Source: Mytilus edulis | Lineage: Eukaryota | DNA: 64,000 nt | NCBI RefSeq assembly: GCF_963676685.1 | Contig: NC_092349.1 | Span: 63,390,924-63,454,923 of the forward strand | Reading direction: 5' to 3' | Made by a program: the position numbers and the translations under genes | Shown here: one piece after another, positions 19,742 through 55,588 of the stretch | Layout of the letters: every line of letters starts with the position of its first letter | How positions within the stretch are numbered: position 1 is the first letter of the stretch | Notes under the pieces: generated by a model | The model's input: the letters and a program-made list of their open reading frames with translations, nothing else | Databases searched by the model: none | What the model was told of the DNA's origin: nothing

Positions 19742-19937
19742 AGTTGTATATGGACCAGAGCGTATGATCACTGTCCCCCCAAGGCATTATTGTATTATTG
19801 AAAACCCAGTACTGAAAGACAAAGAATGTAAAGTTGTCTTTGACGAAAGTGGACAGGCCAAACTTGTACATGCTGACCAGGAGATAAGATTGGCACAGGA
19901 TCCTTTCCCACTGTACCCTGGGGAAATACTAAAACAA
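19742..19937 (+). CDS. MVP: MVP paralog A exon 2
   Basis: Acceptor ttacttacag. (R)[65 protein letters not shown], donor caa|gtatga. Frame anchored to track ORF 19713..19943. Confidence 0.9.
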
Positions 19938-20710
19938 GTATGATGTACCATTATGCTACACTTTGTTTTCATGTATTACCGTATGGCACTTATTTTCGCA
20001 GGGTGTAAATTTTTGCTTATTTTCTTGGATAGAACAAAATTGTCCAAATAAATTCCTCCTATATAAAAGTTAACATGCAAATGTATTGATAAAATGGTTG
20101 AATCCACCATAACAATCACCACCAAAATATTTCGTATACCATGTATACCTTATTCAATGAAAATCGCAAAATCTGGCATAATTGCTCCATTGCAAGGGAT
20201 TTTGTAAGCATTTATCTGCTAGTCAGATGATAACATCTGCTTTTGAAATATTCACAGATATAGTTTGAATGAGATCTGAGAAAATTGACTTTTTTGAAAC
20301 TTAAATAGTCTTGGTTTCGTTACATATGCATGAGAAAATCATCCAGGAGGAAGAAAACAAAATTTGTAAAATTGAAATTGAAAAGGAAGTAATCATATGT
20401 TTACAAGGTCTTGTTTCTATCATTGTCTATCCAGTACAGGTAACATTTAAGATTTGTTATTAAATCAACATTGATCAGTAGAGTGACAAGGAAGTAAGAT
20501 GTCTTAGACGTTTTACTTGATATCACACACCTTTAAATGTCGTTCTCCAAATTATAATGACTTGTTTGATAGTTAAACTAGTATCTTCAAGGTTAACAAT
20601 GTATGATTTAAATCTTCTTTTCATTTTTTGATACTCATAATATTAGGCCTAGTTTATATAACGTGAAAAGTGTTAGCAGCAAATTTTATTATCTCCCTTT
20701 TTGTTTATAG

Positions 20711-21061
20711 GTTGTAACTCCCTTGAAAGTGGTAGCAGCCAACTCAGCCCTTCGGCTCAGAGCTATTCTAGACTTTGAAGATGACGATGAGGAAAAGAGA
20801 ACAGCTGGGGATGAGTGGCTATTTGAAGGACCAGGAACATATATCCCAAGGAAAGAGGTTGTTATTGAGGAGACTGTCAGAGCCACAGTCATTAGACCTA
20901 ACCAGGCCATTAGACTGAGGGCCAGGAAAGAGACTATTGACAGACAAGGTGTTGCTAGGGTAACTGGTGAGGAATGGCTGGTGAAGAAGACTGGAGCTTA
21001 CCTCCCAGGAGCTTATGAAGAAGTTGTGGATGTTGTCAACGCCTATGTTCTAACAGATAAG
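20711..21061 (+). CDS. MVP: MVP paralog A exon 3
   Basis: Acceptor ttgtttatag. [50 protein letters not shown]...[32 protein letters not shown], donor aag|gtaaag. Track ORF 20723..21076. Confidence 0.9.
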
Positions 21062-21414
21062 GTAAAGAGGCTGTAGAGGGTGCATAAAATGTCTTTTTGT
21101 GGAAACATGAAAGTAAAAAAATCAAATTTACAGTGAAATTATATAAGCACATTATTGTACCAGCACAAAATTTAGGTAAATTTTAATTTAGAAAAAAATA
21201 GATGGCATTTGATGTTTGTTTAGGCAAGATCCTACGATACGTTAAAAAAGGTTACTATCTATAATACATGTTATTGAGAGGAGAAAACCCTATAGAATAA
21301 AGAGTAAATCACACAAAAAATATACAGTACTCCTAATTTAATTGATCATTCTCAATATGTTTGGAGGAAATATGTATATTAAAGTTATTAAATATTTTCT
21401 TTCACATCTTGCAG

Positions 21415-21540
21415 AAAGCCCTTCATATGAGGTCATTGAGAACTTTTAAAGATGACTTTGGTGTAACAAGAAAGAATGGAGAGGAATGGCTGATCAAAAT
21501 GACAGACACAGAAACACACATACCTAATGTGTATGAAGAG
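21415..21540 (+). CDS. MVP: MVP paralog A exon 4
   Basis: Acceptor cttgcag. KALHMRSLRTFKDDFGVTRKNGEEWLIKMTDTETHIPNVYEE, donor gag|gtatgt. Track ORF 21361..21573. Confidence 0.9.
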
Positions 21541-22013
21541 GTATGTATCTCTATGGTGTATAATAACAGATAATGAGGCTACAGCCATATGTTCTATGTG
21601 TCAGATCAATATTACCCTACTGTATATGTACATACCAGTAAATCTTATGTTTCCCATTACTGAAAACCAGCTGGTAATCTGGAACCATTTATACTTTTGC
21701 ATTACAAAATGATCGGGAAAAGTGTCAATCTTATGCAAAGTTTTATAGAAAATGTAATTATAGATTGTACAAAATTGTCTGAAAAAGACTTATCCTTAAA
21801 AACTATCTCTGAAAAAAATTGGTAACCTTTTTCCTTGTTTTAATCTCTAGAACCTCAGTTGATTGCACAGGGATCATTTTCGATAACCATGATTGACAAA
21901 TGATTTACCTTAATTTTAAATACCGGTAAGGAACATTAAAAGTCATTTATTTATGGAATGATACCAATGTCTAGCTTCTGACTTTAATGTACACAACTTT
22001 ATTTTTTCCTCAG

Positions 22014-22124
22014 GTTGTTGGAGTTGTGAATATTACCACATTAACCAGCAGACAATACTGTATTATCCTTGATCCTTCAGATGAGCATGGCAGACCACAA
22101 CTTGGTAGAAAGAAATTAGTCAAG
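22014..22124 (+). CDS. MVP: MVP paralog A exon 5
   Basis: Acceptor ttttttcctcag. [37 protein letters not shown], donor aag|gtatgg. 111 nt, phase 0. Confidence 0.85.
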
Positions 22125-22325
22125 GTATGGTGAAAATTTGTTTCAAGGGAATTTACCCCTTTATTTATTCTATTATCATGATTATAATACAATATTCAAT
22201 GTCAATTTTTACTTAACTGTGGGAACTGTGAAAATAATGCAAACTTGGTGTGTACTTCAAAATTAGAAAGAAAGAAATATTTGGTACATGTAGCAGTATT
22301 ACTAATTTCAATGTATTTTTGGTAG

Positions 22326-22451
22326 GGTGAGTGTTCCTTCTTTTTGTTACCTGGAGAACGATTTGAGAGAGGAATCCAGAATGTCTATGTACTGGGAGAA
22401 GATGAAGGAGTTATACTCAGAGCTACAGAATCATTCAAAGATACAGATGCT
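22326..22451 (+). CDS. MVP: MVP paralog A exon 6
   Basis: Acceptor tttttggtag. [42 protein letters not shown], donor gct|gtaagt. 126 nt. Confidence 0.85.
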
Positions 22452-25400
22452 GTAAGTTTTTTGCCTATTTGAAAAAAAAAATCTGGAAAGACATAAATTG
22501 ATATTCGTGTCTTGGTCGTATAAGCCTCCTAGGTAGCTGGAATATATTTAACAAAGATTACAGCTGTGTCTGCCCATCTAACAGGGTATAAGTCAGCTTT
22601 GTATGATACAGTTTGTCAGTTACTTGTAGATAGAAGGTTGGTTTTATCAGGTCACTGCATTTCCCTCAATAAAACATAAATTTCCTAAAAAGCATGACTA
22701 TGATGACTACAAAAAACAAAACAAAGAAAAAAATCAAAAAAGAGACTGAATTTCATGTTTATTTCTCATTCAATTGCAGAGAAACACACTTTTGGTGCAC
22801 ATGATGCAGAGAGACAAAAAGTAACATAAATAATTAAGGCCGTTTATTTTCTCGTTTGAATTGTTTTACATTGTTTTTTCTGTGCCTTTTATAGCTGACT
22901 ACACGGTCAATTCATTTTTGCATCATGTGTCTTGATGTTGACTATTTCTATATTTCTTGCATGCTCTCTGAATATTATCATGATTGTTGAATAAAAAGGT
23001 CTTGAATTTGAAACAACTTTGAAATAATTTCAAAAGCACTTATTTATTAATGATGGGAATCTGGTTTGGTTTGTAATTCAAAGAAATAGCATTGAAAGAA
23101 GACAACAAGACAAACTAATGCTAAAATAAAAAAAAATAAAAACAAGCCTTGACTATAATAGTTACGCCTTTTTATACGATCACAAAAATTGAAATTGTTT
23201 TGGTCATATATTGGTATGACGTTGGCATTGTCGTCGTCATTGTCGTCATCGTCCGAAGACATTTGGTTTTTGCACTATAACTGTAGTGTTAGATAGAAAT
23301 CTATGAAATTTAAACACAAGGTTTATGACCATAAATGGAAGGTTGGGATTGATTTTGGAAGTTTTGGTCCAAACAGTTTAGGAATTAGGGGCCAAAAAGG
23401 GCCTACATAAGCATTTTTCTTGGGTTTTCGCACACAATAACTAGTTTAAGTAAACAGAAATCTATGAAAATTTAACATAAGGTCTATGACCACAAAAGGA
23501 AGGTTGGGATTGATTTTGGGAGAGTTTTTGTCCCAACAGTTTAGGAATTAGGGGCAAAAAACAGGTCCCAAGTAGGCATTTTTCTTGGTTTTTGCACAAT
23601 AACTTTAGTATAAGTTAATAGAAATCTATGAAATTTTAACACAAGGGTTATGACCACAAAAGGTAAGGTTGGGATTGATTTTAGGAGTTTTGGTCCCAAC
23701 GGATTAGGGGCCACAAGGGTCCAAAATTAAACTTTGTTTAATTTCATCAAAAATGTATTATTTGGGTTCTCTGATATGCCAAATCTGACCGTGTATTCAG
23801 ATTCTTAATTGTTTGTCCTGTTTTCAAATTGGTCTACATTAAGGTCCAATGGGTTCAAAATTTAATTTAGCTTGATTTTAACAAAAATTGAATTCTTGGG
23901 GTTCTTTGATATGCTGAATCTAAACATGTACTATGGGCCCAGTTTTCAAGTTGGTCCAAATCAGGGTCCAAAATTATTATATTAAGTATTGTGCAATAGC
24001 AAAAAAAATTCAATTGCACAATATTGTGCAATAGCAAGAAATCTTCAATTGCACAGTATTGTGCAATAGCAAGAAATTTTCAATTGCACAGTATTGTGCA
24101 ATAGCAAGAAATCTTCAATTGCACAATTTTGCGCAATAGCAAGAAATTTTCAATTACAGTTTTGCGCAATAACAAGAAATATTCAATTGCACAGTATTGT
24201 CCCGTTTTCAAATTGAAACTTCAAATTAAAATAAAATGTGCATATGTTTTTATAACTAAATGGATAGTTTTCATTATATAACTTATGCACATATACTTTT
24301 TTCTGAAGAAAATTCTTTAATTTGTCCACATTTAGAAGAAGTTTACTTTTTTTTTAATTGCTTGCTTCCAGGAAGCAATTTGCGGACATATTTTCCATAT
24401 GCATAGTGACCTTAGCGTGACCCTCCTCATAAAAATCCAGTGATTGTAATTCGCATGGATTTGTCTTTAAAATAAACAATTATCTGATTGTACATGTTAA
24501 ACACAAGCTCAATACCCATGCTTTTTTGTTGTTTGTTTAATATAAGGTAACAATCGGTTAACTTCGAGCCAGCCATATTTTTTAAATCTTAACAGACAGA
24601 GAGAAAAAATTGATGATTCTACAATATATTTGCGTAAAAAATGATAAAATCGTGCACAGAAGACTTAGTTTATAATATATACATGCATTGGTTCAAGAAT
24701 TGGATAAACATTATTTTTCACTAGTCACTCGTTTCATGACTATAAGGTCCAAATGGTCAAAAATTAAACTTTGTTTGATTTCAACAAAAATTGAATATAT
24801 GGGGTTCTTCAATATGCTAAAACTAACCATGTATTTAGATTTTTAATATTTGCGCCCAGTTATCAAATTGGTCCACATTGAGGTCTGAAGGGTCTAAAAT
24901 TGAACATTATTTGTTTTTATCTAAAATTGAATTCTTGGGGTTTTATGATCTGCTGAATCTAACCATGTATTAAGATTTTGGATATTGGACCATTATAGGT
25001 AAATGTCCAATTTAAAATTTTTAACTTTTTAAGTTTAAGTTCTTAGACCACATTCATTCTGTGTCAGAAACCTATGTTGTGTCAACTATTTAATCACAAT
25101 CTAAATTCAGAGCTGTATGAAGCTTAAATGTTGTGTCCATACTTGCCCCAACTGTTCAGGGTTCAACCTCTGCGGTCGTATAAAGCTGCGCCTGCGAAGC
25201 ATCTGGTTTATAGAAGTGTTTAAATTCAGTACACTATGCAGTGAACATATATTTTTCAAAGTTATGTCAAAAGATTAGATTGTTTTGTTGTATAACATTT
25301 ATTTACTCTGCATGTTAATATTTTGTTGCATACCATAATATTAAAAGTCTGCTTATGTTAATTCTGTCTGTCTCTCTGTGACTGATTTGCCATTTCAGGA

Positions 25401-25635
25401 TCTAAGCGACTCTAAGGTATTTTTAAGCTGTTCAAACACCTAAGTAAAGTGTACATTACACCTTTGGTTGGAAATCCATTATTTTCTGGAAAAACAAATT
25501 GCATTTTTGGCATTTTTAATTTGTTTTTACCCAAAATGCATTACTGGTAGATTCTGAAATGGTAAAATGTCAAATAACATTAAAGTGTAAAGCAGAGAAG
25601 AGAAAAGGTGAATATTACCTTTTTGTTTATTTCAG

Positions 25636-25647
25636 CCTGATGAAAAA
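25636..25647 (+). CDS. MVP: MVP paralog A putative 12-nt micro-exon (PDEK)
   Basis: tttttgtttatttcag|cctgatgaaaaa|gtaagtc has a strong polypyrimidine tract, AG and a GTAAGT donor. It is phase-neutral and fills the acidic linker between ..KDTDA and [10 protein letters not shown] (compare vertebrate ..EEGEDEEK..). Not required for frame, so it could be alternative. Confidence 0.45.
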
Positions 25648-27126
25648 GTAAGTCAGCAAGTGCACTTAATGCTTTCAGTGCTTTGATCTAACTGTGATTC
25701 TTGTCATACACATTAGATATAAGTAATGTGCTAGCTGCTTCAGAATAGGAAGTGCTTTCTTTGATTATCTAGTGTTTTTAATGTGTGTTTGTCCTTTAAT
25801 CCCTGTTTTGCTAATGTGTTTTACTAATGTGTTTTGCTAATGCCTTAAATTGTCCAGTGTTTTTTCTCATCATTAAAGGGAATCATGAAAACAAACCATG
25901 CTTTTTATTTGAAACTAGATCGATTAATTAAAGACAATGAAAAAAGAACAAATTATTTATAGTTCAATAAACAAAGACATTTAACTTTTTCAAAACATAA
26001 TTTAGTTGTTAATTTGTAAATTTCCTGAATGATATGTAATTCAGCTGTTTGCATTGCAAAGTGCTACAATTTGTATAAATGTACTAAATAATAACAAAAG
26101 ATTTCTTATAATGTGTGCTTCAATAACATAAGTATGCTTTATATTAGGTTCATATTTCAACCTCAATTCCATTGGGAGACTCCTATACTGTTTATACAAA
26201 AGTAAGTCACAGTGACTTCGCTTTGTAAATAGATATTTAAAAATTCAATGTTGTTTGAATATATTATTTTAATAATCTTTTGTTCAAGTTTTCAAAAGAA
26301 ATTTTAAAATCAAGGATTTGAATAAGTTATTTTCTACATAATAAATATTAATAAGCTTTATTTTCAAGAACAAATTCTTGATACAAAATAAATCAGTTAT
26401 TTTCATGCTGTCATCTATTATTCATATCTCATTAGCCTTTTATTGGTCCCAATATCTATGTAATACTTGCCACTGGACATTAAGAAGCAATACTCTATCA
26501 TTCGTTTGATACCAACCTTCATGGGTTTTGTGGGTACAGGTGAACTACAAATTCAAATGTTCAACACATTACAAATTTTTTAATGACTTCAAAATATCTG
26601 CTTGAACATAATAGTATTTTCATTTTTTACATTTTCAAGACTTACATGTTTGAGATTTCTATTCATTCAAATTTCAATACACATTTCATCAAACTCCTTT
26701 ACTAATAGATACTTGTTTTCTGTGTACTTAATCTGGCTTTAAAGATGATTTATTTTGAGTTTACAACATATAATAGCCTTAATGTAGCTTCAAAGGGGTT
26801 CTATCTCTGCATGAGCAATAAAATATTTTTCATGAAGTACAAGTTCAGTCCTTTGACAAAGTTTTTCTCAGTGCATTTACCATGCTTATTGACTTAAGTT
26901 TTTGCACTAACAAGTTTTTCATTTCAACTTTATACTTTTATGGCTGCTTTTTAATGTAGAACTGTTGGTAGTTTTATAAATACTATCAGTTTAAGTCTTC
27001 AGAAGTCATTTCATTTCATACTAGCACATAAAAAGATAGTCAAAACAAGATTTACAAAATCAAGATTCTGTTGGGAAAGATTTTTTGTGACAACAAAGTT
27101 ATTTATTATCAAACTTTTTATTTAAG

Positions 27127-27276
27127 GATGTTGAAAGGAAACCAGGAGATAAATGGATGATCAGGGGACCAGCAGAATATGTACCACCTGTAGAGGTCGA
27201 GGTCATCATGAAGAGAACTGCAATCCCATTGGACGAAAATGAGGGAATCTATGTCAGAGATATTAAAACTGGAAAG
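27127..27276 (+). CDS. MVP: MVP paralog A exon 8
   Basis: Acceptor tttatttaag. [50 protein letters not shown], donor aag|gttggt. 150 nt. Confidence 0.85.
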
Positions 27277-27712
27277 GTTGGTGTTACACATATATATATA
27301 TATACTAACATTAAAACTTGAAATCAACAATAACAAATTCATTTTTTTTTTAAATTCAAAAGAAAGATAAAAAATCTTTTTTAAATGGAATATTTAGCAA
27401 AATGAAGTTATTTTTTGAAGTGAGGATTTTTTCATGAATTTTGTTAAACAAAAAACAACCTATTTTGTAACTGAACAATTCCGAGAATTTTGTGTATGTT
27501 ATGAAACACCGGGGATCTCTATTTTGACCAAAAATTATGAATTAAGATTTGATGTATTGTTATGTTTTTTAAAATACACTGGGTACTGTATATCATTATT
27601 GAGAGAACACACAAACCATTTAAATAGTAACATCTCCCATCATCCATCAACGTTTGATATTGTCTTTACACTAGTGAAGTTTTGACTAAGATTAACATTA
27701 TACATATTATAG

Positions 27713-27951
27713 GTCAGAGCTGTAACTGGAGAAACCTATATGTTAAACCAAGATGAGGAATTATGGGCCAAAGAACTTCCTCCTGCAGTTGAGACCCTTC
27801 TTGCCCAAGGAAAAGACCCTATGGCAGACAGGAGTGATAGGTCCAAATCAAGTGATTCATCCAAACCACGCGACAAGACTCGTGTTGTCACATTCAGAGT
27901 TCCACACAATGCTGCAGTACAGATTTATGATTATAAAGAAAAGAAAGCCAG
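27713..27951 (+). CDS. MVP: MVP paralog A exon 9
   Basis: Acceptor tattatag. [79 protein letters not shown] + ag|gtaaat. Track ORF 27740..27955. Confidence 0.9.
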
Positions 27952-28545
27952 GTAAATAGTGTTTCATACTCAGTGTATACATTCCCATATCCAACAGGCC
28001 ATGAGCAGAATCAGGCTAGTCATTTGATTCATAACAATCTATGAATATTGATTGAGTAGAAAGTACACATTGTAAACCAACTTCTTCAGGGCTTTAGTGG
28101 CCTAATGGGCTAAGAGGTTCATATACAATCATCACAATCTTTTAATTTAAGGTTGCGAGTTCAAACTCAGCGGGTTCCAAGTAAGTTAGACATCAATCTT
28201 AATCAACAAGAAATGCCAGTTTTCCTGCTGAATATCAATGGTTCTTTATGGTTACTCCTGCTTTCTCAATTAATTAAATCTGACCACTGTGGTATGGCAA
28301 ATTTTGCTGAAACTGGAATCAAATATCTAAAAAGAAACAAACAAAGTTCTTTATGTAAATCTTTGATAATTGTTGAATGATCCAGACAATTTTGGTAAAA
28401 TTTAGATTTTATTGAAAACTTATAATTCACAAATTTAATCATTACCCTTGAAATCCAACAAAATTAGTATCAAACAAGTTGTAATGATTGCACAGTAGTT
28501 AGTTACATAGAAATAATACCACTTGTAATTTTCTTTCCTTTATAG

Positions 28546-28888
28546 AGTTGTGTTTGGTCCAGAATTAGTTATGTTGGGTCCAGATGAACAATTCACACAG
28601 CTTAGTCTCTCTGGAGGTAAACCAAAGAAACAAAACGTTATCAAATCATTGTGTTTACTTCTTGGACCTGATTTCTGTACTGACATTATCACCGTAGAAA
28701 CAGCCGATCACGCTAGGTTGTCACTTCAGCTGTCATACAACTGGCACTTTGATATTAAAAATAAAGAAGATAAGACAGAGGCATCTAAGATTTTCAGTGT
28801 ACCAGATTTTGTTGGGGATGCCTGCAAGGCCATTGCCTCCCGGATTAGAGGAGCTGTGGCTCAAGTTCAGTTTGATGATTTCCACAAG
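28546..28888 (+). CDS. MVP: MVP paralog A exon 10
   Basis: Acceptor cctttatag. (R)[28 protein letters not shown]...[31 protein letters not shown], donor aag|gtatga. Track ORF 28550..28894. Confidence 0.9.
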
Positions 28889-29506
28889 GTATGATTAATA
28901 ATCTGTACAAGTGTAGATCTTAATAGACACATGCATTATCACTGAAATTTTTTTATAGGTCAAACTCATAAAATTATTGTTCTATTCATAAATATTACGC
29001 ATATAAAAATTGTTTTAGCTGTTGAGAAAATATTCATAAATATTGCGCAAATAAAAATAAATGTGTGGTATGATTGGCAATTTGAGTACTCTCCACCAGA
29101 GACAAAAGTGGCATAGAATTTAACCTTGAATTATAATTTTATGAACAAATAAACATGAGCTAAAAATTGTCTTTCAAAATTATACTAAAGAATTATTTCC
29201 AGGTTTTTCTCAAAATCCAGGGGTGGTGCTAAAAACTCCAGAGTGTAAGAGAACCACTCTGGAATATCCTTTGATGTTCCGTGAGGCATATTGATAGATA
29301 CGAAACCTTATGTTTATACATGTATCACTGCATAATATAATTTTTTCTCATCAGGGCAAGGAGTGAATCAATCCTATTAAATGAAGAAAAAATATATTAT
29401 GCCATATAGAATAAAAAATACAATCACAAATAATCAGTACAAACTGAAAATTATCTACTGTGGACAGAAAAAAAATCAAAATTAAGAAATCTGCATTATG
29501 TTACAG

Positions 29507-46123: not shown

Positions 46124-46359
46124 CTGTAAAGAAAAGCAAAATTGAAGATAAGTTAAGATTTTATCACATGATTTACATATTAGTATCTTGTTAGTACATT
46201 GTATTGCTCTAATAAACAGACTTATCAAACCCCTTTCACCAATTGAAATAAGGTACAATTAAGAACAGTATTATGATGACATTATCAATTCTAAACATAA
46301 AACTTAACGCTTAAATTAAATCTCACTTTAAGTACCAATAACACATTTTATCAATATAC

Positions 46360-46601
46360 CTTGCTTTCTTTTCTTTATAATCGTAAATCTGTACAGCAGC
46401 ATTGTGTGGAACTCGGAAAGTGATCACACGTGTTTTGTCACGTGGTTTAGCAGCCTCACTTCCTGGTTTTGGTCCTCTCTCACCAAAGGCCTGTGGGTTT
46501 TTAGCCTCAGCCAGGAGAGTCTCGACTGCAGGAGGAAGTTCTTTAGCCCATAGTTCCTCATCCTGATTTAACATGTATGTCTCTCCAGTTACAGCTCTGA
46601 C
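46360..46601 (-). CDS. MVP: MVP paralog B exon 9
   Basis: Acceptor cattttag. [80 protein letters not shown] + ag|gtatat. Track ORF 46323..46574. 242 nt versus 239 in A. Confidence 0.9.
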
Positions 46602-46855
46602 CTAAAATGTGTATTTTAAAATATTTGATATCACAAGGTAACAAATATATATGTTCAATTCACAACTCTATTCAGTTAATATATTCTTATAGATCACCGA
46701 AAATTACATTTGATGTGTTAAATGAATTTGCATTTTACACAAAGATGTTTGATAGAATTTCATTACATAATATGAGACTATCAACTGACTGACATCTTTA
46801 AGAAAAATACACATGTATATGATTATTTGTGGAAAATAGAAACTGTATGACATAC

Positions 46856-47005
46856 CTTTCCAGTTTTAATACATCTGACATAGATACCCTCATTTTCATC
46901 TAGTGGTAGTGCAGTTCTCTTCATGGTCACCTCAACCTCCACTGGTGGAACGTATTCTGCTGGTCCCCGAATCATCCATTTATCTCCTGGTTTTCGTTCT
47001 ATCTT
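46856..47005 (-). CDS. MVP: MVP paralog B exon 8 (no micro-exon 7 equivalent located)
   Basis: Acceptor ttatttccag. [50 protein letters not shown], donor aag|gtatgt. Track ORF 46823..47062. Confidence 0.9.
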
Positions 47006-47504
47006 CTGGAAATAAAAGAACATGTCAATAGAAATATTATCGTGTAAAACAAAGCAAAACAATCATATCAATAGTAATTTGGATTTCATACCAAAGACAC
47101 CTTCAATAGGAAATAATTGTCAAACTGTTTTAAACAGGTGGAACTAGTTTGCATTTTACATTTACCACAGATAAAAGGGTTCCCAGAATAACTATTAACC
47201 TGAAATGTTTGAGCAAAAACAGTATCATTCAGGCTTACATAAAGGTCATTTTTATAAATTTCCTGTTTACAAAATTTTGAATTTTTCAAAAAACTAAGGA
47301 TTTTCTTATCCCAGGCATAGATTACCTTAGCCGTATTTGGCATAACTTTTCGAATTTTTGATCCTCAATGCTCTTCAACTTTGTACTTGTTTGGCTTTAT
47401 AAATATTTTGATATGAGCGTCACTGATGAGTCTTATGTAACCGAAACGCGCGTCTGGCGTACTAAATTATAATCCTGGTACCTTTGATAACTATTTGCAA
47501 TAAC

Positions 47505-47650
47505 AGTATGACAACCAGGTGCTCCGCAGGGCGCAGCTTTATACGACCGCAGAGGTCGATCCCTGAACAGTTGGGGCAGGTATGGACAAAAAATTTAAGC
47601 GTGATACAGCTCTGAATTTGGATTGTGATCAAATTTTTGACATTATATGG
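47505..47650 (+). mobile_element. SINE-like about 180-bp element (ccagatgctccgcagggcg.agctttatacgaccgcagaggttgaaccctgaacagttggggcaagtatggacac...) with a box-B-like GGTTGAACCC. Copies are at 48555-48720(+), 52315-52500(+), 1741-1925(-), 25043-25210(-), 36690-36865(-) and 41140-41300(-).
   Basis: Seven copies at about 85-95% identity in both orientations. Three (36690, 41140, 48555) are fused to an about 250-bp A-rich module (..atgatgtatttaaatgag..attcaacagcatagtgaattgctcaaaag), giving a composite about 450-bp element (36440-36865, 40890-41300, 48555-48960). Confidence 0.6.
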
Positions 47651-50600
47651 GTTTTTTACACAAAACAAATGTCAAGCCATTCCATCATCATCATCATCTC
47701 AATTCAAATTTTAAATGGACTTTGCAACCATAAACACTCATTTAAATACATCAGAAAATTATAAAAATAGAAAATGACATGATAGTCATGTCTGGCAAAT
47801 TTCCAACATACATTATCTAAAAACATTTTAGAAAAGATAAGGGAAAAAAGCTTCATCAGCAACATTTTATATTGGCAAATTTCCAATGAAGTTATTTACA
47901 TAAAGTTATTGGCAAATAAAAATAGAAAATGACATCATAGTCATATCTGGCAAATTTCCAACATATATTATCTAAAAATATTTTAGATAAGATAAGGAAA
48001 AAAAAACTTCATTAGCAACATTTTATATTGGCAAATTTCCAATGAAGTTATTTACATAAAGTTATAGGCAAATAAAAATAGAAAATGACATCATAGTCAT
48101 GTCTGGCAAATGTCCAACATACATTATCTAAAAACATTTTAGATAAGATAAGGAAAAAAAGCTTCATCAGCAACATTTTATATTGGCAAATTTCCAATGA
48201 AGTTATTTACATAAAGTTATTGGCAAATTTCCAACATATATTATCAACTACTACTCTATACAAAGAAAGATAACTCCAATTGAAAATTAATTGCTATTAC
48301 ACAATATTGTGCAATTAGATATTTCTTGCTATTGTGCAATACTGTGCAATTGAAAATTTCTTGCTATTGCACAATACTTGATATGGAATCCTGATTTGGA
48401 CCAACTTGAAAACTGGACCCATAATCAAAAATCAAAGTACATGTTTAGATAAAGCATATCAAATAAGCCAAAGAATTTAATTTTTGTTAAAATCAAACTT
48501 AGTTTAATTTTGGACCCCCATTTGGACCAACTTGAAAACTAGGCCAATAATTAACCAGATGCTCCGCAGGGCGTAGCTTTATACGACCGCAGAGGTTGAA
48601 CCCTGAACGGTTGGGGCAAGTATGGACACAACATTCAAGCTGGATTCAGCTCTAAATTTGGATTGTGATTAAATAGTTGACACAGCATAGGTTTCTGACA
48701 CAGAATGAATGTGTTCTAATGAACTTAAAATTTTTGTTTTCTCTTAGAGCAATTCACTATGCTGTTGAATATTAATCCTCTCAAAAAAATGTTTGAAGAA
48801 ATTTTCTTTTTTATTTATGAAATTTCAAATGAGAAAAATTGAACCCAATTTTTTTAATCACATCCCCCTTTCCTTTATTCCAAAACTAATCTCAATTAAA
48901 ATTTCTAATGGAGTTTGCAACAATAACTACTCATTTAAATACATCATAAAATATTAAGATGTAAAAAAACTGCTTGTTATCACTGAATGGTAAAGATTAT
49001 TTTAATTTATCAGTTGGTAGTAAAAAGTGAATATACATTGTATATTGTATATAACAAAGATTTAAGTTGATTCTGGACAAAGAAAGATAACTCCAATTAA
49101 AAAAAATCTTGCTATTGCACAATATTTTGCAATTAGATATTTCTTGCTTACTATTCTGGACAAAGAAAGATAACTCTAATTAAAAAAAAAATTTGCTATT
49201 TCACAATATTGTGCAATTAAATATTTCTTGCCATTGCGCAATACTGTGCAATTGAAAAGACTTGCTATTGCACAATACTTAATATAATAATTTTAGATCC
49301 TGATTTGGACCAACTTGAAAAGTGGGCCCATAATAAAAAATCTAAGAACATTTTTGGATTCAGCATATCAAAGAACCCCAAGATTTCAATTTTTGTTAAA
49401 ATCAGACTAAGTTTAATTTTGGACCCTTTGGACTTGATGGTAGACCAATTTGAAAACAGCACCAAAAATGAAGAATCTACATACACAGTAAGATTTGGTA
49501 TATCAAAGAACCCCATTTATTCAATTTTTGATGAAATCAAACAAAGTTTAATTTTGGACCCCGATTTGGACCAACTTGAAAACTGGGCCAATAATCAAGA
49601 ATCTAAGTACATTTTTAGATTCAGCATATCAAAGAACCTAACTGATTCATTTTTTGTCAAAATCAAACTAAGTTTAATTTTGGACCCTTTGGACCTTAAT
49701 GTAGACCAATTTGAAAACGGGACCAAAAGTTAAGAATCTACATACACAGTCATGACAGTTAGATTCGGCATATCAAAGAACCCCAATTATTCAATTTTGA
49801 TGAAATCAAACAAAGTTTAATTTTGGACCCTTTGGGCCCCTTATTCTGTTGGGACCAAAACTCCCAAAATCAATACAAACCTTCCTTTTATGGTCATAAA
49901 CCTTGTGTTTAAATTTCATAGATTTCTATTTACTTAAACTAAAGTTATTGTGCGAAAACCATGAATAATGCTTATTTGGGCCCTTTTTTGGCCCCTAATT
50001 CCTAAACTGTTGAAACCAAAACTCCCAAAATCAATCCCAACCGTTCTTTTGTGGTCATAAACCTTGTGTCAAAATTTCATAGATTTCTATTAACTTAAAC
50101 TAAAGTTATAGTGCGAAAACAAAGAAAATGCTTATTTGGGCCCTTTTTGGCCCCTAATTCCTAAAATGTTGGGACCAAAACTCCCAAAATCAATACCAAC
50201 CTTCCTTTTGTGGTCATAAACCTTGTGTTAAAATTTCATAGATTTCCATTCACTTTTACTAAAGTTAGAGTGCGAAAAGTTTTTCAAATTTTGCGGTCGT
50301 ATAAAAATCTAAGTACATTTTTAAATTCAGCATATCAAAGAACCCCAAGGATTCAATTTTTGTTAAAATCAAACTAAGTTTAATTTTGGACCCTTTGGAC
50401 CTTAATGTAGACCAATTTGAAAACGGGACCAAAAATTAAGAATCTACATACATAGTTAGATTCGGCATATCAAAGAACCCCAATTATTCAATTTTTGATG
50501 AAATCACACAAAGTTCAATTTTGGACCCTTTGGGCCCCTTATTCCTAAACTGTTGGAACCAAAACTCCCAAAATCAAACCCAACCTTCCTTTTGTGGTCA

Positions 50601-51445
50601 TAAACCTTGTGTTAAAATTTCATAGATTTCCATTCACTTTTACTAAAGTTAGAGTGCGAAAAGTTTTTCAAATTTTGCGGTCGTATAAAAATCTAAGTAC
50701 ATTTTTAAATTCAGCATATCAAAGAACCCCAAGGATTCAATTTTTGTTAAAATCAAACTAAGTTTAATTTTGGACCCTTTGGACCTTAATGTAGACCAAT
50801 TTGAAAACGGGACCAAAAATTAAGAATCTACATACATAGTTAGATTCGGCATATCAAAGAACCCCAATTATTCAATTTTTGATGAAATCACACAAAGTTC
50901 AATTTTGGACCCTTTGGGCCCCTTATTCCTAAACTGTTGGAACCAAAACTCCCAAAATCAAACCCAACCTTCCTTTTATGGTCATAAACCTTGTGTTTAA
51001 ATTTCATAGATTTCTATTTACTTATACTAAAGTTATGGTGCCAAAAATAATGCTTATTTGGGCCCCTTTTTGGCCCCTAATTCATAAACTGTTGTGACCT
51101 CAACTCCAAAAATCAATCCCAAGATTTTGGGAGTTTTGGTCCCAACATTTTAGGAATTTGGGGCCATATTCATTGATTTCTATTCACTTTTACTAAAGTT
51201 AGAGTGCGAAAACTAAAAGTATTCGGACGACGACGACGCAGGACGACGACGACGACGCCAACGTGATAGCAGTATACGACCAAAAAATTAAAATTTTTGC
51301 GGTCGTATAAAAAGCATAGGCCATTTTCTGTGTTAACTTAAAATAATTTTGTTGAACAGTTTTGATATAGATACAGACATCCAATCATAAAACAAAAAGA
51401 AAACACGTGATATAAATACTTAATAGTGTTCACAGTTCAACTTAC

Positions 51446-51571
51446 AGCATCTTTATCAATGAATGATTCTGTTGCTCGTAGAATAACACCTTCATCTTCT
51501 CCCAGTACATAGACATTCTGGATTCCTCTCTCAAATCGTTCTCCGGGTAACAAAAAGAAGGAACACTCACC
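51446..51571 (-). CDS. MVP: MVP paralog B exon 6
   Basis: Acceptor tttttatag. [42 protein letters not shown], donor gct|gtaagt. 126 nt. Confidence 0.85.
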
Positions 51572-52173
51572 CTATAAAAATACAATTATATAAAATGAGA
51601 ATAATTATATACTCGGGGAATAAGAAAGATGCCTTCAATGAAAACGTTAAAGTTAAGTTAAAGATCAGCTTTCAGCTGTTGAGTTGTATTGACATTGAGA
51701 GAAAAAAGAATGTTTTCTGTAAAATACACAATGTAAAGAATTCTGATCCGAACGCCGACTTATTAATTGACATTTCACCGTTTCAGAATCTAATGCACCC
51801 TGAGTAATATTTTCCAAAGTGTACGCCAGAAACGTCGTGATTGGTTAAAAATGTCATTAACAATGGAAATTCAACCAATGACGTGACGCTATTTTCATTT
51901 TGGGTACGAACAATGAAATTACCCATGATTCTTTAGATTTTGAAACGGCCAATTACTAAGTACTCTTTTAGAGATGGTGCAATAGGAAATACACCGTACA
52001 TATGACATAATAACAGGGCGTTTTCGTCACTGTTCAAAATACTTTATTCACATAAGCTTGTTGCATGCCAATTTATTAATATAAACTTGGTATATACTAT
52101 GCAACAGCATACATTGATGAAACTTAGTTATACAGAATATTATCTATGCTAATTCATCTAACATTGTATTTAC

Positions 52174-52284
52174 CTTAACTAATTTCTTTCTACCCAGCTG
52201 AAGTCTGCCATGTTCATCGGAAGGGTCAAGAATGATACAATATTGTCTTGAGGTAAGTGTGGTGATGTTGATGACTCCAACAAC
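52174..52284 (-). CDS. MVP: MVP paralog B exon 5
   Basis: Acceptor gatttcag. [37 protein letters not shown], donor aag|gtaaat. 111 nt. Confidence 0.85.
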
Positions 52285-53614
52285 CTGAAATCAAACCGTA
52301 AGTATATTACAAACCAGATGCTCCGCAGGCCGCAGCTTTATACGACCGCAGAGTTTGAACCCTGAACATTTGGGCAAGTATGGACACAACATTCAAACTT
52401 GATACAGCTCTGAATTTGGATTGTGATTAAAAAGTTAACACAACACAGGTTTCTGACACATAATGAATGTGGTTTAAGAACTTAAACTTAAAAACTTTAA
52501 ATTTTAAATTGTACATTACCTATTATGGTCCAATATCCAAATTCTAAATACATGGTTAGATTAAGCATATCAAAGAACCCCAAGAATTCAATTTTTGATG
52601 AAATCAAATAAAGTTCAATTTTGGACCCTTTACACCTCAATGTGGACCAATTTGATAACCGGACCAAAACATCAAAAATCTAAACATGGTTAGATTAAGC
52701 ATATATCAAAGAACCCTAATATAGACAATTTTTGTTGAAATCAAACAAAGTTTAATTTTGGACCCCAATTTGGACCAACCTGAAAACTGGGCCTATAATC
52801 AAAAATCTAAATACATGTTTAGATTCAGCATATCAAAGAACCCCAAGGATTCAAAATCTAAATACATGTTTAGATTCAGCATATCAAAGAACCCCAAGGA
52901 TTCATTTTTTGTTGATATCAAACAAAGTTTAATTTTGGACCCCGATTTGGTCCAACTTGAAAAATTGGGCCAATAGTAAAAAATATACGTAAATGTTTAG
53001 ATTCAGCACATCAAAGAACCCCAAGGATTCAATTTTTGTTAAAATCAAACTTAGTTTAATTTTGGACCCTTTGGACCTTAATGTAGACCAATTTGAAAAC
53101 GGGACCAAAAATTAATAATCTACATACACAGTTAGATTCGGCATATCAAAGAACCCCAATTATTAAATTTTTGAAGAAATCAAACAGCTTGATACCAATA
53201 TACGACCAAAACATTTTCAATTTTAGCGGTCGTATAAAAATTGGAAACTGTTTTTCAACCACCGCAACATTAACATTTCTTTTCAGTAGGCGTTAAGTTT
53301 CAAAAACAATGGCAATTACTTAAGTATTGGTCCATTGCTGCATTGTTTGAACAGAACTTAAGCGAATCTGAGCTGTACTCAAATTGAATATTATCATAAC
53401 TTGTAAAATGAAACTCGGAAGAGTGCATGAGTATGAACTGCACTGAGTCAGAATCATATTTTGTTGATTAAAAGTGAAATAGAAAGGAAGTAAGGAAAGG
53501 ATTTGAAGAAATCAAAGTGAAGATGTGTTCCCCAGACACGTTTTTCTTTTATTCATAAAAGGAAAACAATAAGTGTTTATTCCATATTTCATTCCCTGTT
53601 ACATCAGTACATAC

Positions 53615-53740
53615 CTCTTCATACACATTAGGTATGTGTGTTTCTGTGTCTGTCATTTTGATCAACCATTCCTCTCCATTCTTTCTTGTTACACCAAAGT
53701 CGTCTTTAAATGTTCTCAATGATATCATATGGAGGGCTTT
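53615..53740 (-). CDS. MVP: MVP paralog B exon 4
   Basis: Acceptor tatcttgcag. KALHMISLRTFKDDFGVTRKNGEEWLIKMTDTETHIPNVYEE, donor gag|gtatgt. Track ORF 53549..53746. Confidence 0.9.
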
Positions 53741-54130
53741 CTGCAAGATAACAAATTAGATTGATTGTTGGTTGCTTAACGTCCAGTGGCAAATGAACAA
53801 ATAAGATGATAATGTCTTGTCTAATTACGTTGTACATTACTAGTATTTGAAAGGTGAATAATATGACCAGATAACTCTAAGAAATATTTTTAAAATTGTT
53901 TGTTCCTATTATGCTACGTTTTCTTTCTCTATTTTATATAACGTTTTTATGGTGTACTAGTTTATCATCTATTTATTCCTCCGCAAATTTAAATAAACAT
54001 GCAAAATATTTTTTAAATACGAAAATTCAAACGATCGCATCAACAAAAGAAACACGAAACATGCACCAATAGATCAACGATCAATTTATCTTCTTTTTAT
54101 CGTCATTCCACTGATTGGAACTATATTTAC

Positions 54131-54481
54131 CTTATCTGTTAGAACATAGGCGTTGACAACATCTACAACTTCTTCATAGGCTCCTGGGAGATAAGCTCCG
54201 GTCTTCTTCACCAGCCATTCCTCACCGGTTACCCTAGCAACACCTTGTCTATCAATAGTCTCCTTCCTAGCCCTCAATCTAATGGCCTGGTTAGGTCTAA
54301 TGACTGTGGCTCTGACAGTCTCCTCAATAACAACCTCTTTCCTTGGGATATATGTTCCTGGTCCTTCAAATAGCCACTCATCCCCAGCTGTTCTCTTTTC
54401 TTCATCATCGTCTTCAAAGTCTAGAATAGCTCTGAGCCGAAGAGCGGAGTTGGCTGCTACCACCTTCAGGGAGGTTACAAC
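54131..54481 (-). CDS. MVP: MVP paralog B exon 3
   Basis: Acceptor ttcgtag. [50 protein letters not shown]...LTDK, donor aag|gtaaat. Track ORF 54086..54463. 351 nt as in A. Confidence 0.9.
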
Positions 54482-55392
54482 CTACGAACAAATGAGAAAT
54501 TCAAATCGGCTGCTACCTAATATCAAGGGTTTCCACCTTTAATCCACAATGGTGAAAATCAAATAAAATGCTACCATTTTAAATGGTGGTATACTTATCA
54601 TCAATTAAATTAGCTCCTAATACTTTTTACTACCAATAAACAACAAAGAAGATGCCGAAACCAGCTGCAACTACAGTCATGGCAGGGCTACAACAAATAA
54701 GTGAGATAACTCAAACTCAGGTGCTACTACAGTTTAGGGAGGGTTACAACCAATTAACAACACTTGGAAGGTCAAATCAAATCAGTTGCGTATAGAACAG
54801 CTTCAACCTTCAAGCAACGAGGGAGGAAATCAAATATGTAGCTACCACTGTCAGGGGACGGTTGAAACCAATAAACAACAATTAAATGAAAAAAAAAATC
54901 AACTGCTTTTAAGTAAGCTACAACCTCTAAACAACAAGGGAGGGAATCAAATTATCTGCTACCACTGACAGAAGGGATGGTTAAGACCAGTAACCAACAC
55001 TTAAAAGGAGAAAAAGCAAATCGGTCACTGCCACTTATGGGTTACAACGAATAAGTCATCCGTGGATGTTATATCATTGAAAGTCAATAAGTGATCAATA
55101 TAACATTTTTTCCTTAACTTCATTATGTATTATTGAAAAAATTAGATTATTTCATGCAATCGATAAGTCGTAAATCTGTAGGTAATAACGCATACAATCC
55201 CTGATTACTTATACATTACTGGATTTACTGGCTAGATGCTCAAAATAATTGTTTACTGGGAAATCGTGCCTAGAAGCTGAAATCAAAACAACTCATATAT
55301 TTTTGACAAGTAATAATGAATTAAATATTGTAACTACTTTGTTCTGTTCATTGTTATATCAAAACTTGAACCTATAGCCACGAATATCATAC

Positions 55393-55588
55393 CTGTTTCA
55401 GTATTTCCCCAGGGTACAGTGGGAAAGGATCCTGTGCCAATCTAATCTCCTGGTCAGCATGTACAAGTTTGGCCTGTCCACTTTCGTCAAAGACAACTTT
55501 ACATTCTTTGTCCTTTAGTACAGGGTTTTCTACGATACAATAATGCCTTGGGGGCACTGTGATCATACGCTCTGGTCCATATACCACT
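55393..55588 (-). CDS. MVP: MVP paralog B exon 2
   Basis: Acceptor tttacag. (K)[65 protein letters not shown], donor caa|gtatga. Track ORF 55387..55608. Same 196-nt length as A exon 2. Confidence 0.9.

What the first reader, a model, noticed from the sequence alone, without database searches (positions are those of the whole stretch)
19742..55588. Exon-restricted sequence homogenisation between the MVP paralogs (introns unalignable, exons 94-97% identical including synonymous sites)
Exon 2 and exon 3 of A versus B differ at only about 12/196 and about 17/351 nt, with runs of 55-125 identical nucleotides. The flanking introns differ in length (e.g. intron 2 is 773 versus 911 nt) and I could not align them by eye. 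This fits inter-paralog gene conversion in an inverted repeat, or a recent duplication followed by very rapid intron turnover driven by TE and satellite insertion. It is not consistent with simple ancient divergence.
Basis: seen in the sequence. Interest (0 to 1): 0.7.

Follow-up and report, generated by a model that had tools for sequence, protein, structure and literature searches.

The report
Patchy gene conversion between mussel MVP paralogs
Two old, tail-to-tail copies of the major vault protein gene in the blue mussel have repeatedly copied short stretches of a few exons onto each other while their introns diverged beyond recognition; this is a clean example of a well-known process, not a new one.

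Summary
The window is Mytilus edulis. It holds two intact, convergent 12-exon MVP genes: A at 19216-31613 (+) and B at 56112-44089 (-). My gene models equal RefSeq XP_071180012 and XP_071180003.

But 94-95% identity holds only for exons 2-4 (exon 6 is 92.9%). The other exons are 73-90% identical and the CDS overall is 86.8%.

- **Paralog dS** ranges from 0.21-0.32 (exons 2, 3, 4, 6) to above 1 or saturated (exons 1, 5, 8, 9).
- **Ortholog dS** is uniform along the gene, so synonymous constraint is excluded.
- **Age:** both copies exist in five Mytilus species, so the duplication is ancient.
- **Introns:** orthologous introns at dS about 0.34 align well. Paralogous introns score like shuffled sequence.
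- **Exons 2-4:** paralog-specific fixed differences vanish (3 in 672 nt, against 60 in 579 nt of exons 8-9) and the A and B clades collapse.
- **Lineage-specific tracts** of 80-125 nt are visible.
- **Template:** an M. californianus tract carries A-type intron sequence into B, so the template there was genomic DNA.

Verdict: ancient duplication plus recurrent, short, homology-limited interlocus gene conversion. This is a new member of a known kind, of moderate-to-low interest.

The parts
19216..31613 (+). MVP paralog A. It has 12 coding exons: 19216-19355, 19742-19937, 20711-21061, 21415-21540, 22014-22124, 22326-22451, 27127-27276, 27713-27951, 28546-28888, 29507-29718, 30130-30373 and 31275-31613. 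The product is 858 aa.
   Evidence: All splice sites are GT-AG and the ORF is intact. The translation is identical to M. edulis XP_071180012. Pfam finds the Vault repeats plus MVP_shoulder.
44089..56112 (-). MVP paralog B, convergent with A. It has 12 coding exons: 56112-55982, 55588-55393, 54481-54131, 53740-53615, 52284-52174, 51571-51446, 47005-46856, 46601-46360, 46123-45781, 45525-45314, 45051-44808 and 44433-44089. The product is 858 aa.
   Evidence: All splice sites are GT-AG and the ORF is intact. The translation is identical to M. edulis XP_071180003. Pfam finds the Vault repeats plus MVP_shoulder.
19742..21540 (+). Homogenised block in A: exons 2-4 with the non-homologous introns 2 and 3 between them.
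   Evidence: Exon identity to B is 93.8-95.2% and dS is 0.21-0.32. Only 3 fixed A-versus-B differences occur in 672 nt across four species. Introns 2 and 3 score like shuffled sequence.
53615..55588 (-). Homogenised block in B: exons 2-4 with the non-homologous introns 2 and 3 between them.
   Evidence: Same evidence as for the A block. In this block the A clade has 4% bootstrap and the B clade 18%, against 100% each in exons 1+8+9.
20792..20914 (+). Most recent conversion tract in exon 3, A side (exon positions 82-204). The partner in B is 54400-54278.
   Evidence: There are 0 differences in 123 nt between A and B of M. edulis, and also M. galloprovincialis B. Over the same stretch M. edulis B differs at 5 sites from M. 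trossulus B. A Sawyer-type run of 11 concordant polymorphic sites gives P=0.003 uncorrected.
54278..54400 (-). Most recent conversion tract in exon 3, B side.
   Evidence: as for the A side.
22326..22408 (+). Conversion tract covering the 5' 83 nt of exon 6, A side. The partner in B is 51571-51489.
   Evidence: In nt 1-83, M. edulis B differs from A at 1 site but from the B orthologs of M. trossulus, M. californianus and M. coruscus at 7, 11 and 9 sites. In nt 84-126 the relation is reversed: 8 differences to A and 4 to the B orthologs.
51489..51571 (-). Conversion tract in exon 6, B side. The likely direction is A to B.
27713..28888 (+). Exons 8-9 of A, which are unconverted and anciently diverged. 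The partner in B is 46601-45781. Exon 1 (A 19216-19355, B 56112-55982) behaves the same way.
   Evidence: dS is 1.1-1.7 in exons 8-9 and saturated in exon 1. Fixed A-versus-B differences number 27, 33 and 24 in exons 8, 9 and 1. The A and B clades each have 100% bootstrap.
29719..29843 (+). The 5' end of intron 10 in A: a decayed tandem copy of the 3' end of exon 10 plus its donor site. This is the only intronic A/B homology in the window. The partner in B is 45313-45189.
   Evidence: An nhmmer profile built from the A introns hits intron 10 of B collinearly at E=7e-13. The alignment is shown. Similarity of the intron segment to the end of its own exon 10 gives z=12 in B and z=2 in A.

Best explanation
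An ancient inverted (tail-to-tail) duplication of the MVP gene predates the radiation of the genus Mytilus. Since then, recurrent short-tract (about 80-125 nt) non-allelic gene conversion has kept some exons similar: strongly exons 2-4 and 6, partly exons 5, 11 and 12. Exons 1 and 7-10 and all introns have diverged freely.

What is shown:
- The duplication is old.
- The synonymous rate is uniform along the gene between orthologs.
- The mosaic divergence is specific to the paralog comparison.
- Conversion events occurred after speciation in several lineages.
- Introns that would still be alignable at the age of the exons are not alignable.
- At least one tract, in M. californianus, copied intron sequence, so its template was genomic DNA.

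What is inferred: homogenisation looks 'exon-restricted' because strand invasion and heteroduplex extension need near-identical sequence. Between these copies only exons still offer that, so tracts start and end inside exons or stop within a few bases of the splice junctions. Why exons 1 and 7-10 escaped is not settled. Selection for A/B-specific residues, or chance loss of the identity threshold, are both possible.
For: 1. **dS mosaic.** Per-exon dS between A and B is 0.21-0.32 in exons 2, 3, 4 and 6. It is 0.48-0.79 in exons 7, 10, 11 and 12, 1.1-1.7 in exons 5, 8 and 9, and saturated in exon 1. The broad contrast between exons 2-4 and exons 1, 8 and 9 recurs in M. trossulus, M. californianus and M. 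coruscus, while exons 5 and 6 differ between lineages.
2. **Heterogeneity tests.** pS varies among exons with chi2 of 73-100 (p from 1e-11 to 1e-16) for paralog pairs in all four species. Four of five Win/Mtro-versus-Mcal/Mcor ortholog pairs are homogeneous with p of 0.14-0.95; MtroB-McalB is at p=0.009. Ortholog dS in exons 2-4 (0.25-0.48) is as high as in exons 8-9, which excludes synonymous constraint. GC3 is about 0.35 in all exons.
3. **Fixed differences.** A-versus-B fixed differences across four species are 1/195, 1/351 and 1/126 in exons 2-4. They are 24/132, 27/237 and 33/342 in exons 1, 8 and 9. Other variation is similar in both sets.
4. **Trees.** NJ trees give 100% bootstrap for the A and B clades in exons 1+8+9, but 4% and 18% in exons 2-4.
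5. **Lineage-specific events.**
   - Exon 3 nt 82-204 and exon 6 nt 1-83 in the edulis/galloprovincialis lineage.
   - Exon 3 nt 251-351 in M. californianus.
   - Four sites in exon 2 where both paralogs of one clade share a state.
6. **Intron control.** Orthologous introns at dS about 0.34 mostly align over the majority of their length at 60-80% identity. Paralogous introns give no hits, although exonic dS between paralogs is lower, at 0.2-0.3.
7. **Genomic template.** In M. californianus, intron 4 of B begins with 117 nt that match A at 113/117. This stretch includes A-type intron sequence, then switches to B-type intron.
8. **Precedent.** Concerted evolution restricted to coding sequence, with homology undetectable in non-coding DNA, is described in the literature (PMC3924837, PMC3966223).
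Against: - Individual tracts are only marginally significant in a Sawyer-type permutation (best P=0.003, uncorrected for 16 pairs).
- Conversion status of an exon does not correlate with its general protein constraint (Spearman rho about 0). A simple rule that 'the most conserved exons keep converting' therefore does not explain which exons escaped.
- There is no GC-biased signature.
- Incomplete lineage sorting or introgression within the M. edulis complex blurs the timing of events. For example, the 3' half of M. galloprovincialis B is nearly identical to M. trossulus B.
- The genomic-DNA template is shown in M. californianus, not in the window's own lineage.
Confidence: 0.85

Rival explanations
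1. Conversion is templated by spliced RNA or cDNA. A processed transcript of one paralog repairs the other, so only exon sequence is ever transferred and introns are untouched.
For: In the window the identity drop coincides with the splice junctions to within 10-30 nt at almost all of them, the intron 10 donor being the one exception. dS far below intron divergence has been read as evidence for a cDNA donor in fungal ribosomal-protein genes (bioRxiv 10.1101/751792). One concordant run in M. trossulus spans the exon 4/exon 5 junction (P=0.06).
Against: The M. californianus tract carries 2 x 28 nt of A-type intron 4 into B, which a spliced template cannot do. Adjacent exons have different histories: exon 5 has dS 1.13 between exons 4 and 6 at 0.21 and 0.27. 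The recent tracts (exon 3 nt 82-204, exon 6 nt 1-83) are sub-exonic and need no special template. No intron has been lost from either copy in any of the five species.
Confidence: 0.08
2. There was no conversion. Exons 2-4 and 6 are under unusually strong constraint at synonymous sites (splicing enhancers, RNA structure or codon bias), so they simply diverged more slowly after the ancient duplication.
For: These exons also have very low dN between A and B, at 0.004-0.026.
Against: Ortholog dS in exons 2-4 (0.25-0.48 between M. edulis and M. californianus or M. coruscus) equals that of exons 8-9, and pS is homogeneous among exons for orthologs. dS to the outgroup transcript is 0.8-2.7 in these exons. 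GC3 is no different. The paralog clades collapse and lineage-specific shared variants exist.
Confidence: 0.02
3. The duplication is recent (or is an assembly or haplotype artefact), and introns were scrambled quickly by transposon and satellite insertion.
For: Introns 4 and 6 of B and intron 6 of A carry large satellite or transposon arrays. Intron 6 of B is 4440 nt here against 255-601 nt in the other species.
Against: Both copies exist in five species with the same orientation. Exons 1, 8 and 9 have dS above 1 in most comparisons, the lowest being 0.74. Introns of each copy align with their orthologs, so turnover is not unusually fast. Even short introns without repeats, such as intron 1 (386 versus 393 nt) and intron 3 (353 versus 390 nt), are unalignable between paralogs.
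Confidence: 0.01
4. Conversion is potentially gene-wide, but selection removes converted alleles in exons 1 and 7-10 because A and B have diverged in function there. The mosaic would then reflect selection against homogenisation rather than a homology threshold.
For: Fixed amino-acid differences concentrate in exons 1, 8, 9 and 12: dN is 0.06-0.11 there against 0.004-0.015 in exons 2-4. B has a long non-synonymous stem branch. Exon 9 is well conserved between the outgroups yet strongly diverged between A and B. Opsin-type 'islands of divergence' are a known pattern (PMC3924837).
Against: Synonymous sites in these exons are near saturation, so at present they lack the identity needed for conversion regardless of selection. 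This idea does not explain why the introns escaped. No functional data exist for A versus B. It complements the main explanation rather than replacing it.
Confidence: 0.3

Closest known systems
Concerted evolution of old duplicates restricted to coding sequence (for example yeast whole-genome-duplication paralogs and ribosomal-protein gene pairs)
   Same: Paralog dS is far below the divergence of non-coding DNA. Homology is undetectable outside coding sequence. Concerted evolution lasted long and ended at different times in different segments (PMC3924837; bioRxiv 10.1101/751792).
   Different: Here the genes have 11 introns each, so the coding-only pattern is broken into separate exon-sized islands. 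Only about a third of the CDS is affected. One tract demonstrably used a genomic template, not cDNA.
Mosaic divergence by interlocus gene conversion in animal paralogs (Caenorhabditis paralogs, primate opsins and globins, Tigriopus GOT1)
   Same: Tracts are short. Paralogs are physically close, including inverted ones. Conversion depends on sequence identity. Islands of divergence sit next to homogenised segments (PMC3966223; PMC3924837; PMC3728101, abstract).
   Different: In the opsins and in many C. elegans cases introns are converted as well or even preferentially. Here introns are excluded because they had already diverged beyond the identity threshold.
Major vault protein gene family
   Same: Both genes encode full-length MVP with Vault repeats and the shoulder domain. 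They are 75-85% identical to MVP of other metazoans.
   Different: In one search the non-Mytilus species that appear are represented by one cluster, or by isoforms on a single contig; copy number was not counted systematically. Mytilus carries a retained, convergent pair. No paper on this pair turned up.

Membership tests
Interlocus (non-allelic) gene conversion / concerted evolution | Divergence between paralogs varies by region while divergence between orthologs is uniform along the same gene | tested here: met
   Paralog pS heterogeneity has p from 1e-11 to 1e-16 in four species. Four of five comparable ortholog pairs give p of 0.14-0.95; one gives 0.009.
Interlocus (non-allelic) gene conversion / concerted evolution | Tree topology changes along the gene, with paralog clades lost in converted segments | tested here: met
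   The A and B clades have 100% bootstrap in exons 1+8+9. They have 4% and 18% in exons 2-4.
Interlocus (non-allelic) gene conversion / concerted evolution | Some segments are closer to the paralog in the same genome than to the ortholog, and both paralogs of a lineage share derived variants | tested here: met
   Exon 6 nt 1-83 shows 1 difference against 7-11. Exon 3 nt 82-204 shows 0 against 5. M. californianus exon 3 nt 251-351 shows 3 against 8. Four clade-pattern sites occur in exon 2.
Interlocus (non-allelic) gene conversion / concerted evolution | Statistically significant tracts in a runs test (GENECONV or Sawyer type) | tested here: inconclusive
   My own implementation gives a best paralog fragment at P=0.003 (M. 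edulis, exon 3) and 0.006 (M. trossulus, exon 2), uncorrected for 16 pairs. The longest identical run of 123 nt exceeds all 5000 random placements.
Interlocus (non-allelic) gene conversion / concerted evolution | GC-biased signature in converted segments (frequent, but not obligatory) | tested here: not met
   GC3 is 0.34-0.36 in converted exons and 0.32-0.36 in unconverted exons.
Interlocus (non-allelic) gene conversion / concerted evolution | Polymorphisms shared between paralogs, or events observed directly in populations | not testable with these tools
   Only one haplotype per species was available.
cDNA/RNA-templated gene conversion | Transferred tracts never contain donor intron sequence | tested here: not met
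   M. californianus B intron 4 starts with A-type intron sequence (113/117 identical to A) before switching to B-type. No informative tract exists in the window's own lineage.
cDNA/RNA-templated gene conversion | Tracts run continuously across exon-exon junctions, or introns are lost | tested here: inconclusive
   No intron is lost in any of 10 gene copies. Neighbouring exons 4, 5 and 6 have dS of 0.21, 1.13 and 0.27. One junction-spanning run has P=0.06.
Major vault protein | Vault repeat domains plus the shoulder domain in an intact ORF of about 850-870 aa | tested here: met
   Pfam PF01505, PF17794, PF17795, PF17796 and PF11978 all score above their cut-offs in both copies. Both ORFs are 858 aa and identical to the RefSeq models.
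Recent segmental inverted duplication | Uniformly low divergence including introns and flanks, and restriction to one lineage | tested here: not met
   Introns and flanks are non-homologous. Both copies occur in five species.

The most novel reading that the evidence does not exclude
The tandem duplications of 'exon end + intron start' could be scars of how conversion tracts are resolved. They sit exactly at donor junctions: intron 10 in all copies, and intron 4 in both M. californianus copies. A strand newly synthesised on the paralog may run past the exon into non-homologous intron, and can then re-anneal only through exon homology, which duplicates the junction. If so, this locus would record physically that the exon-intron boundary is where heteroduplex formation fails. 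It would also suggest a general route by which conversion between old paralogs creates tandem alternative donor sites.
Probability: 0.15. Interest if true: 0.55.

Novelty: new member of a known kind. Interest (0 to 1): 0.33.

Why it matters
This is a well-controlled case study, not a discovery of principle. Ten gene copies from five Mytilus species show the following:

- Paralog similarity at synonymous sites cannot be used to date this duplication.
- Conversion between old duplicates can persist for a long time in exon-sized islands after introns have lost homology.
- Such tracts are short and use genomic DNA as template in at least one case.

In practice, mussel MVP is widely used as a stress and proteomic marker. 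Primers, probes or peptides placed in exons 2-4 will not separate the two genes, while exons 1, 8 and 9 will. Phylogenies or dS-based duplication dating built from the whole CDS would also be misleading.

Tried and rejected
- **Synonymous constraint:** rejected by the uniform ortholog dS and by GC3.
- **Recent duplication or assembly artefact:** rejected by presence in five species and dS above 1 (lowest 0.74) in exons 1, 8 and 9.
- **'The most constrained exons keep converting':** there is no correlation between an exon's conversion status and its dN between two outgroup transcripts.
- **gBGC signature:** none found.
- **Dating the duplication against the nearest outgroup transcript (P0002, species unknown):** unresolved. 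The A+B clade gets 80% with all codon positions but 35% with positions 1+2.
- **Sawyer-type tract detection:** only marginal significance.
- **More sensitive search for intron homology (nhmmer profiles of A introns against B introns):** nothing found except the exon-derived segment at the start of intron 10, repeat-related hits in introns 6 and 11, and two borderline 42-44-nt hits in intron 2 (E about 0.006).
- **Literature search for a description of the Mytilus MVP pair:** none found among 12 papers that mention both terms.
- **A look-up of the 858-aa M. californianus A isoform (P0127):** failed because only the longest isoform is on record. P0122 was used instead.

Full report
**What is there.** The window is AT-rich eukaryotic DNA. 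A blastn comparison of the two halves of the window, on opposite strands, gives a collinear chain of 12 short matches between 19.2-31.6 kb (+) and 56.1-44.1 kb (-). Dispersed repeats give many further matches. Translating these matches and reading the junctions gave two complete 12-exon genes. All introns are GT-AG and each product is 858 aa. Both products carry the full set of major vault protein domains. They are identical to the RefSeq proteins XP_071180012 (copy A) and XP_071180003 (copy B) of Mytilus edulis. The genes are convergent, with 12.5 kb between their stop codons.

**Check of the observation.**
- Exon 2 is 196 nt with 12 differences.
- Exon 3 is 351 nt with 18 differences.
- The longest identical runs are 68 and 123 nt.
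- Intron 2 is 773 versus 911 nt.

A 123-nt identical run was never reached in 5000 random placements of the 337 CDS differences.

The introns really cannot be aligned:
- Local alignment scores for the 10 intron pairs tested equal those of shuffled controls.
- blastn at word size 9 finds nothing except shared repeat families in intron 6.
- Identity drops from about 87-100% to the random level within 10-30 nt of almost every splice junction; the intron 10 donor side is the exception.

The title over-generalises, however. Only exons 2, 3 and 4 are 94-95% identical, and exon 6 is 92.9%. The other eight exons are 73-90% identical and the CDS as a whole is 86.8%.

**The divergence is a mosaic.** Nei-Gojobori dS between A and B by exon:

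| Exon | 1 | 2 | 3 | 4 | 5 | 6 | 7 | 8 | 9 | 10 | 11 | 12 |
|---|---|---|---|---|---|---|---|---|---|---|---|---|
| dS | saturated | 0.32 | 0.23 | 0.21 | 1.13 | 0.27 | 0.78 | 1.05 | 1.74 | 0.79 | 0.58 | 0.48 |

Overall dN is 0.046, and both copies are under purifying selection.

**Comparative test.** Both paralogs are annotated in M. trossulus, M. californianus, M. coruscus, M. galloprovincialis and M. edulis. I fetched both loci from the first four species. The convergent arrangement is the same in all of them. I recovered all 12 exons of each copy. Two outgroup transcripts of unknown mytilid origin were added. Three results follow.
1. Ortholog dS is uniform along the gene. For M. edulis versus M. 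californianus it is 0.43, 0.30 and 0.36 in exons 2-4, and 0.33 and 0.36 in exons 8-9. Heterogeneity tests give p of 0.14-0.95 for four of the five ortholog comparisons of this depth (the fifth, MtroB-McalB, gives 0.009), against 1e-11 to 1e-16 for paralogs in each of four species. Exons 2-4 therefore have no special synonymous constraint. GC3 is also flat.
2. In exons 2-4, paralogs within a genome (dS 0.1-0.3) are as close as, or closer than, orthologs across the deepest Mytilus split. In exons 1, 8 and 9, A-versus-B dS exceeds 1 in most comparisons (lowest 0.74, M. coruscus exon 8), so the duplication is much older than the genus crown.
3. Fixed A-versus-B differences across four species number 1, 1 and 1 in exons 2-4 (672 nt). 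They number 24, 27 and 33 in exons 1, 8 and 9 (711 nt). Other variation is comparable in the two sets. NJ trees give 100% bootstrap for separate A and B clades in exons 1+8+9, but 4% and 18% in exons 2-4.

**Individual events.**
- In exon 3, nt 82-204, M. edulis A, M. edulis B and M. galloprovincialis B are identical. M. trossulus B differs from them at 5 sites.
- In exon 6, nt 1-83, M. edulis B differs from A at 1 site but from the other B orthologs at 7-11 sites. In nt 84-126 it is B-like.
- In M. californianus, exon 3 nt 251-351 of B carries variants specific to the A copies of M. californianus and M. coruscus. These variants are absent from M. coruscus B.
- Four sites in exon 2 have a state shared by both paralogs of one clade and a different state in both paralogs of the other clade.

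Tracts are thus short, roughly 80-125 nt, and recurrent. They arose in different lineages after speciation. A Sawyer-type permutation supports single tracts only marginally (best P=0.003 uncorrected). The regional evidence is the stronger argument.

**Why introns are excluded.** The decisive control is the orthologous introns. At dS of about 0.34, introns of M. edulis A mostly align with those of M. californianus or M. coruscus A over the majority of their length at 60-80% identity, and the same holds for B. Paralogous introns give no hit at all, even though the flanking exons 2-4 are less diverged (dS 0.2-0.3) than those orthologs. The exons therefore coalesce much more recently than the introns between them. 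A single long tract or a recent duplication cannot produce this.

The simplest mechanism is homology-limited conversion. Introns lost identity long ago, so only exons can support strand invasion and heteroduplex formation. This is the pattern described for old yeast duplicates and discussed for animal paralogs (PMC3924837; PMC3966223).

The alternative of a spliced cDNA template has been proposed for fungal ribosomal-protein genes (bioRxiv 10.1101/751792). It is disfavoured here for three reasons:
- In M. californianus, intron 4 of B starts with 117 nt that are 113/117 identical to A. This stretch consists of A-type intron sequence plus tandem copies of the exon 4 end, and it then switches to B-type intron.
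- Neighbouring exons have unrelated histories. Exon 5 has dS 1.13 between exons 4 and 6 at 0.21 and 0.27.
- No intron has been lost in any of the ten gene copies.

That the template in the M. edulis lineage was also genomic DNA is an inference.

**What remains unexplained.** Which exons escaped conversion does not track general protein constraint. Exon 9 is conserved between the outgroups yet is the most diverged between A and B. Selection for paralog-specific residues, such as the variable loop in exon 8 and the N and C termini, is a plausible but untested complement. The age of the duplication relative to the nearest outgroup transcript is unresolved. Haplotype sharing within the M. edulis complex means the timing 'after the M. 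trossulus split' should be read as haplotype-based. For example, M. galloprovincialis B exons 9-12 are almost identical to M. trossulus B.

**A profile search for residual intron homology.** nhmmer profiles of the A introns against the B introns found only the first ~125 nt of intron 10 as collinear intron homology; the remaining hits were repeat-related or borderline. This segment is a decayed tandem copy of the last ~60 nt of exon 10 plus its donor site. It is present in all copies and nearly perfect in the A copies of M. californianus and M. coruscus. Together with the intron 4 junction repeat in M. californianus, it hints that conversion or slippage at the edge of homology duplicates donor junctions. 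This is speculation.

**Verdict.** Gene conversion is the right reading, and the 'recent duplication with fast intron turnover' alternative is wrong. The phenomenon is a textbook kind: concerted evolution of old paralogs confined to coding islands. It has not been described for this gene pair as far as the searched literature shows. It is a tidy, multi-species example with practical consequences for distinguishing the two mussel MVP genes, and its interest is moderate to low.

Noticed in passing
window 25634-25649 (+); microexon at 25636-25647: A 12-nt microexon CCTGATGAAAAA (PDEK) with AG and GT flanks lies in intron 6 of copy A. It matches the 4-aa insert (…[17 protein letters not shown]…) in a 2021 M. 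edulis annotation (P0005), and the 862-aa isoform X1 models of M. edulis and M. galloprovincialis are 4 aa longer than the 858-aa forms. The pattern occurs once in the window and is not expected by chance. No equivalent was found in copy B.
   Followed up: partly
window 36939-38603 (-): The spacer between the two MVP genes holds two adjacent ORFs. One (199 aa) has B-box zinc-finger matches. The other (349 aa) has weak beta-propeller matches (SGL/NHL-like). Together they look like one of the TRIM-like genes that are expanded in bivalves, either split over two exons or frameshifted.
   Followed up: partly
window 23168-25212, 33534-36855, 40052-41307, 47500-53240; also 962-1916 and 7901-8354: Composite dispersed repeat and satellite arrays (periods of about 35, 126-135, 155-164 and 384 nt) occur on both strands. 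They lie in intron 6 of A, introns 4 and 6 of B, the spacer and upstream DNA. They account for nearly all non-exonic A/B BLAST hits. Intron 6 of B is 4440 nt here but 255-601 nt in the other four species, so this is a recent insertion.
   Followed up: partly
window 29719-29843 (+) and 45189-45313 (-); also L002, L003, L001 and L004 intron 10: Intron 10 begins with a tandem copy of the last ~60 nt of exon 10 plus the donor site. The copy is decayed in M. edulis (z=2 in A, z=12 in B). It is 69/72 and 71/72 identical to the exon in M. californianus A and M. coruscus A, which carry two such copies and so have tandem pseudo-donor sites.
   Followed up: partly
L002 about 12777-12893 and L001 about 12367-12483 (M. 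californianus intron 4): A 54-nt unit made of the last 26 nt of exon 4 and the first 28 nt of A-type intron 4 is tandemly repeated at the start of intron 4 in both paralogs of M. californianus only. The copy in B is followed by B-type intron sequence. It is the clearest conversion tract that crosses an exon-intron boundary.
   Followed up: yes
exons 9-12 of copy B: window 46123-44089 versus L012 and L006: M. galloprovincialis B is almost identical to M. trossulus B in exons 9-11 (2, 5 and 1 differences). M. edulis B differs from both at 13-21 sites. Exon 12 of A differs at 25 of 300 sites between M. edulis and M. galloprovincialis. This suggests deep haplotype lineages or introgression at the 3' ends within the M. 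edulis species complex.
   Followed up: no
L003 about 21384-21623 (M. coruscus A, exon 8): There is a single-base insertion relative to all other copies. It would shift the reading frame, and the annotated M. coruscus protein is shorter (843 aa). It is probably an assembly error but could be a real lesion. I removed it for the codon analyses.
   Followed up: no
window 19216-19355 versus 56112-55982 (exon 1): Synonymous sites of exon 1 differ at 26 of about 29 sites (pS 0.9-0.95), which is above the 0.75 expected at saturation, while most of the encoded peptide is conserved. Four-fold degenerate sites (8 of 11) are consistent with plain saturation, so this may be a counting artefact.
   Followed up: partly
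window 5112-5918 (-): An ORF of 268 aa rich in coiled-coil-like sequence lies upstream of copy A and has no Pfam match. A gene called at the corresponding position in M. trossulus (L005 1-4257, - strand, 272 aa) suggests it is a real neighbouring gene.
   Followed up: no
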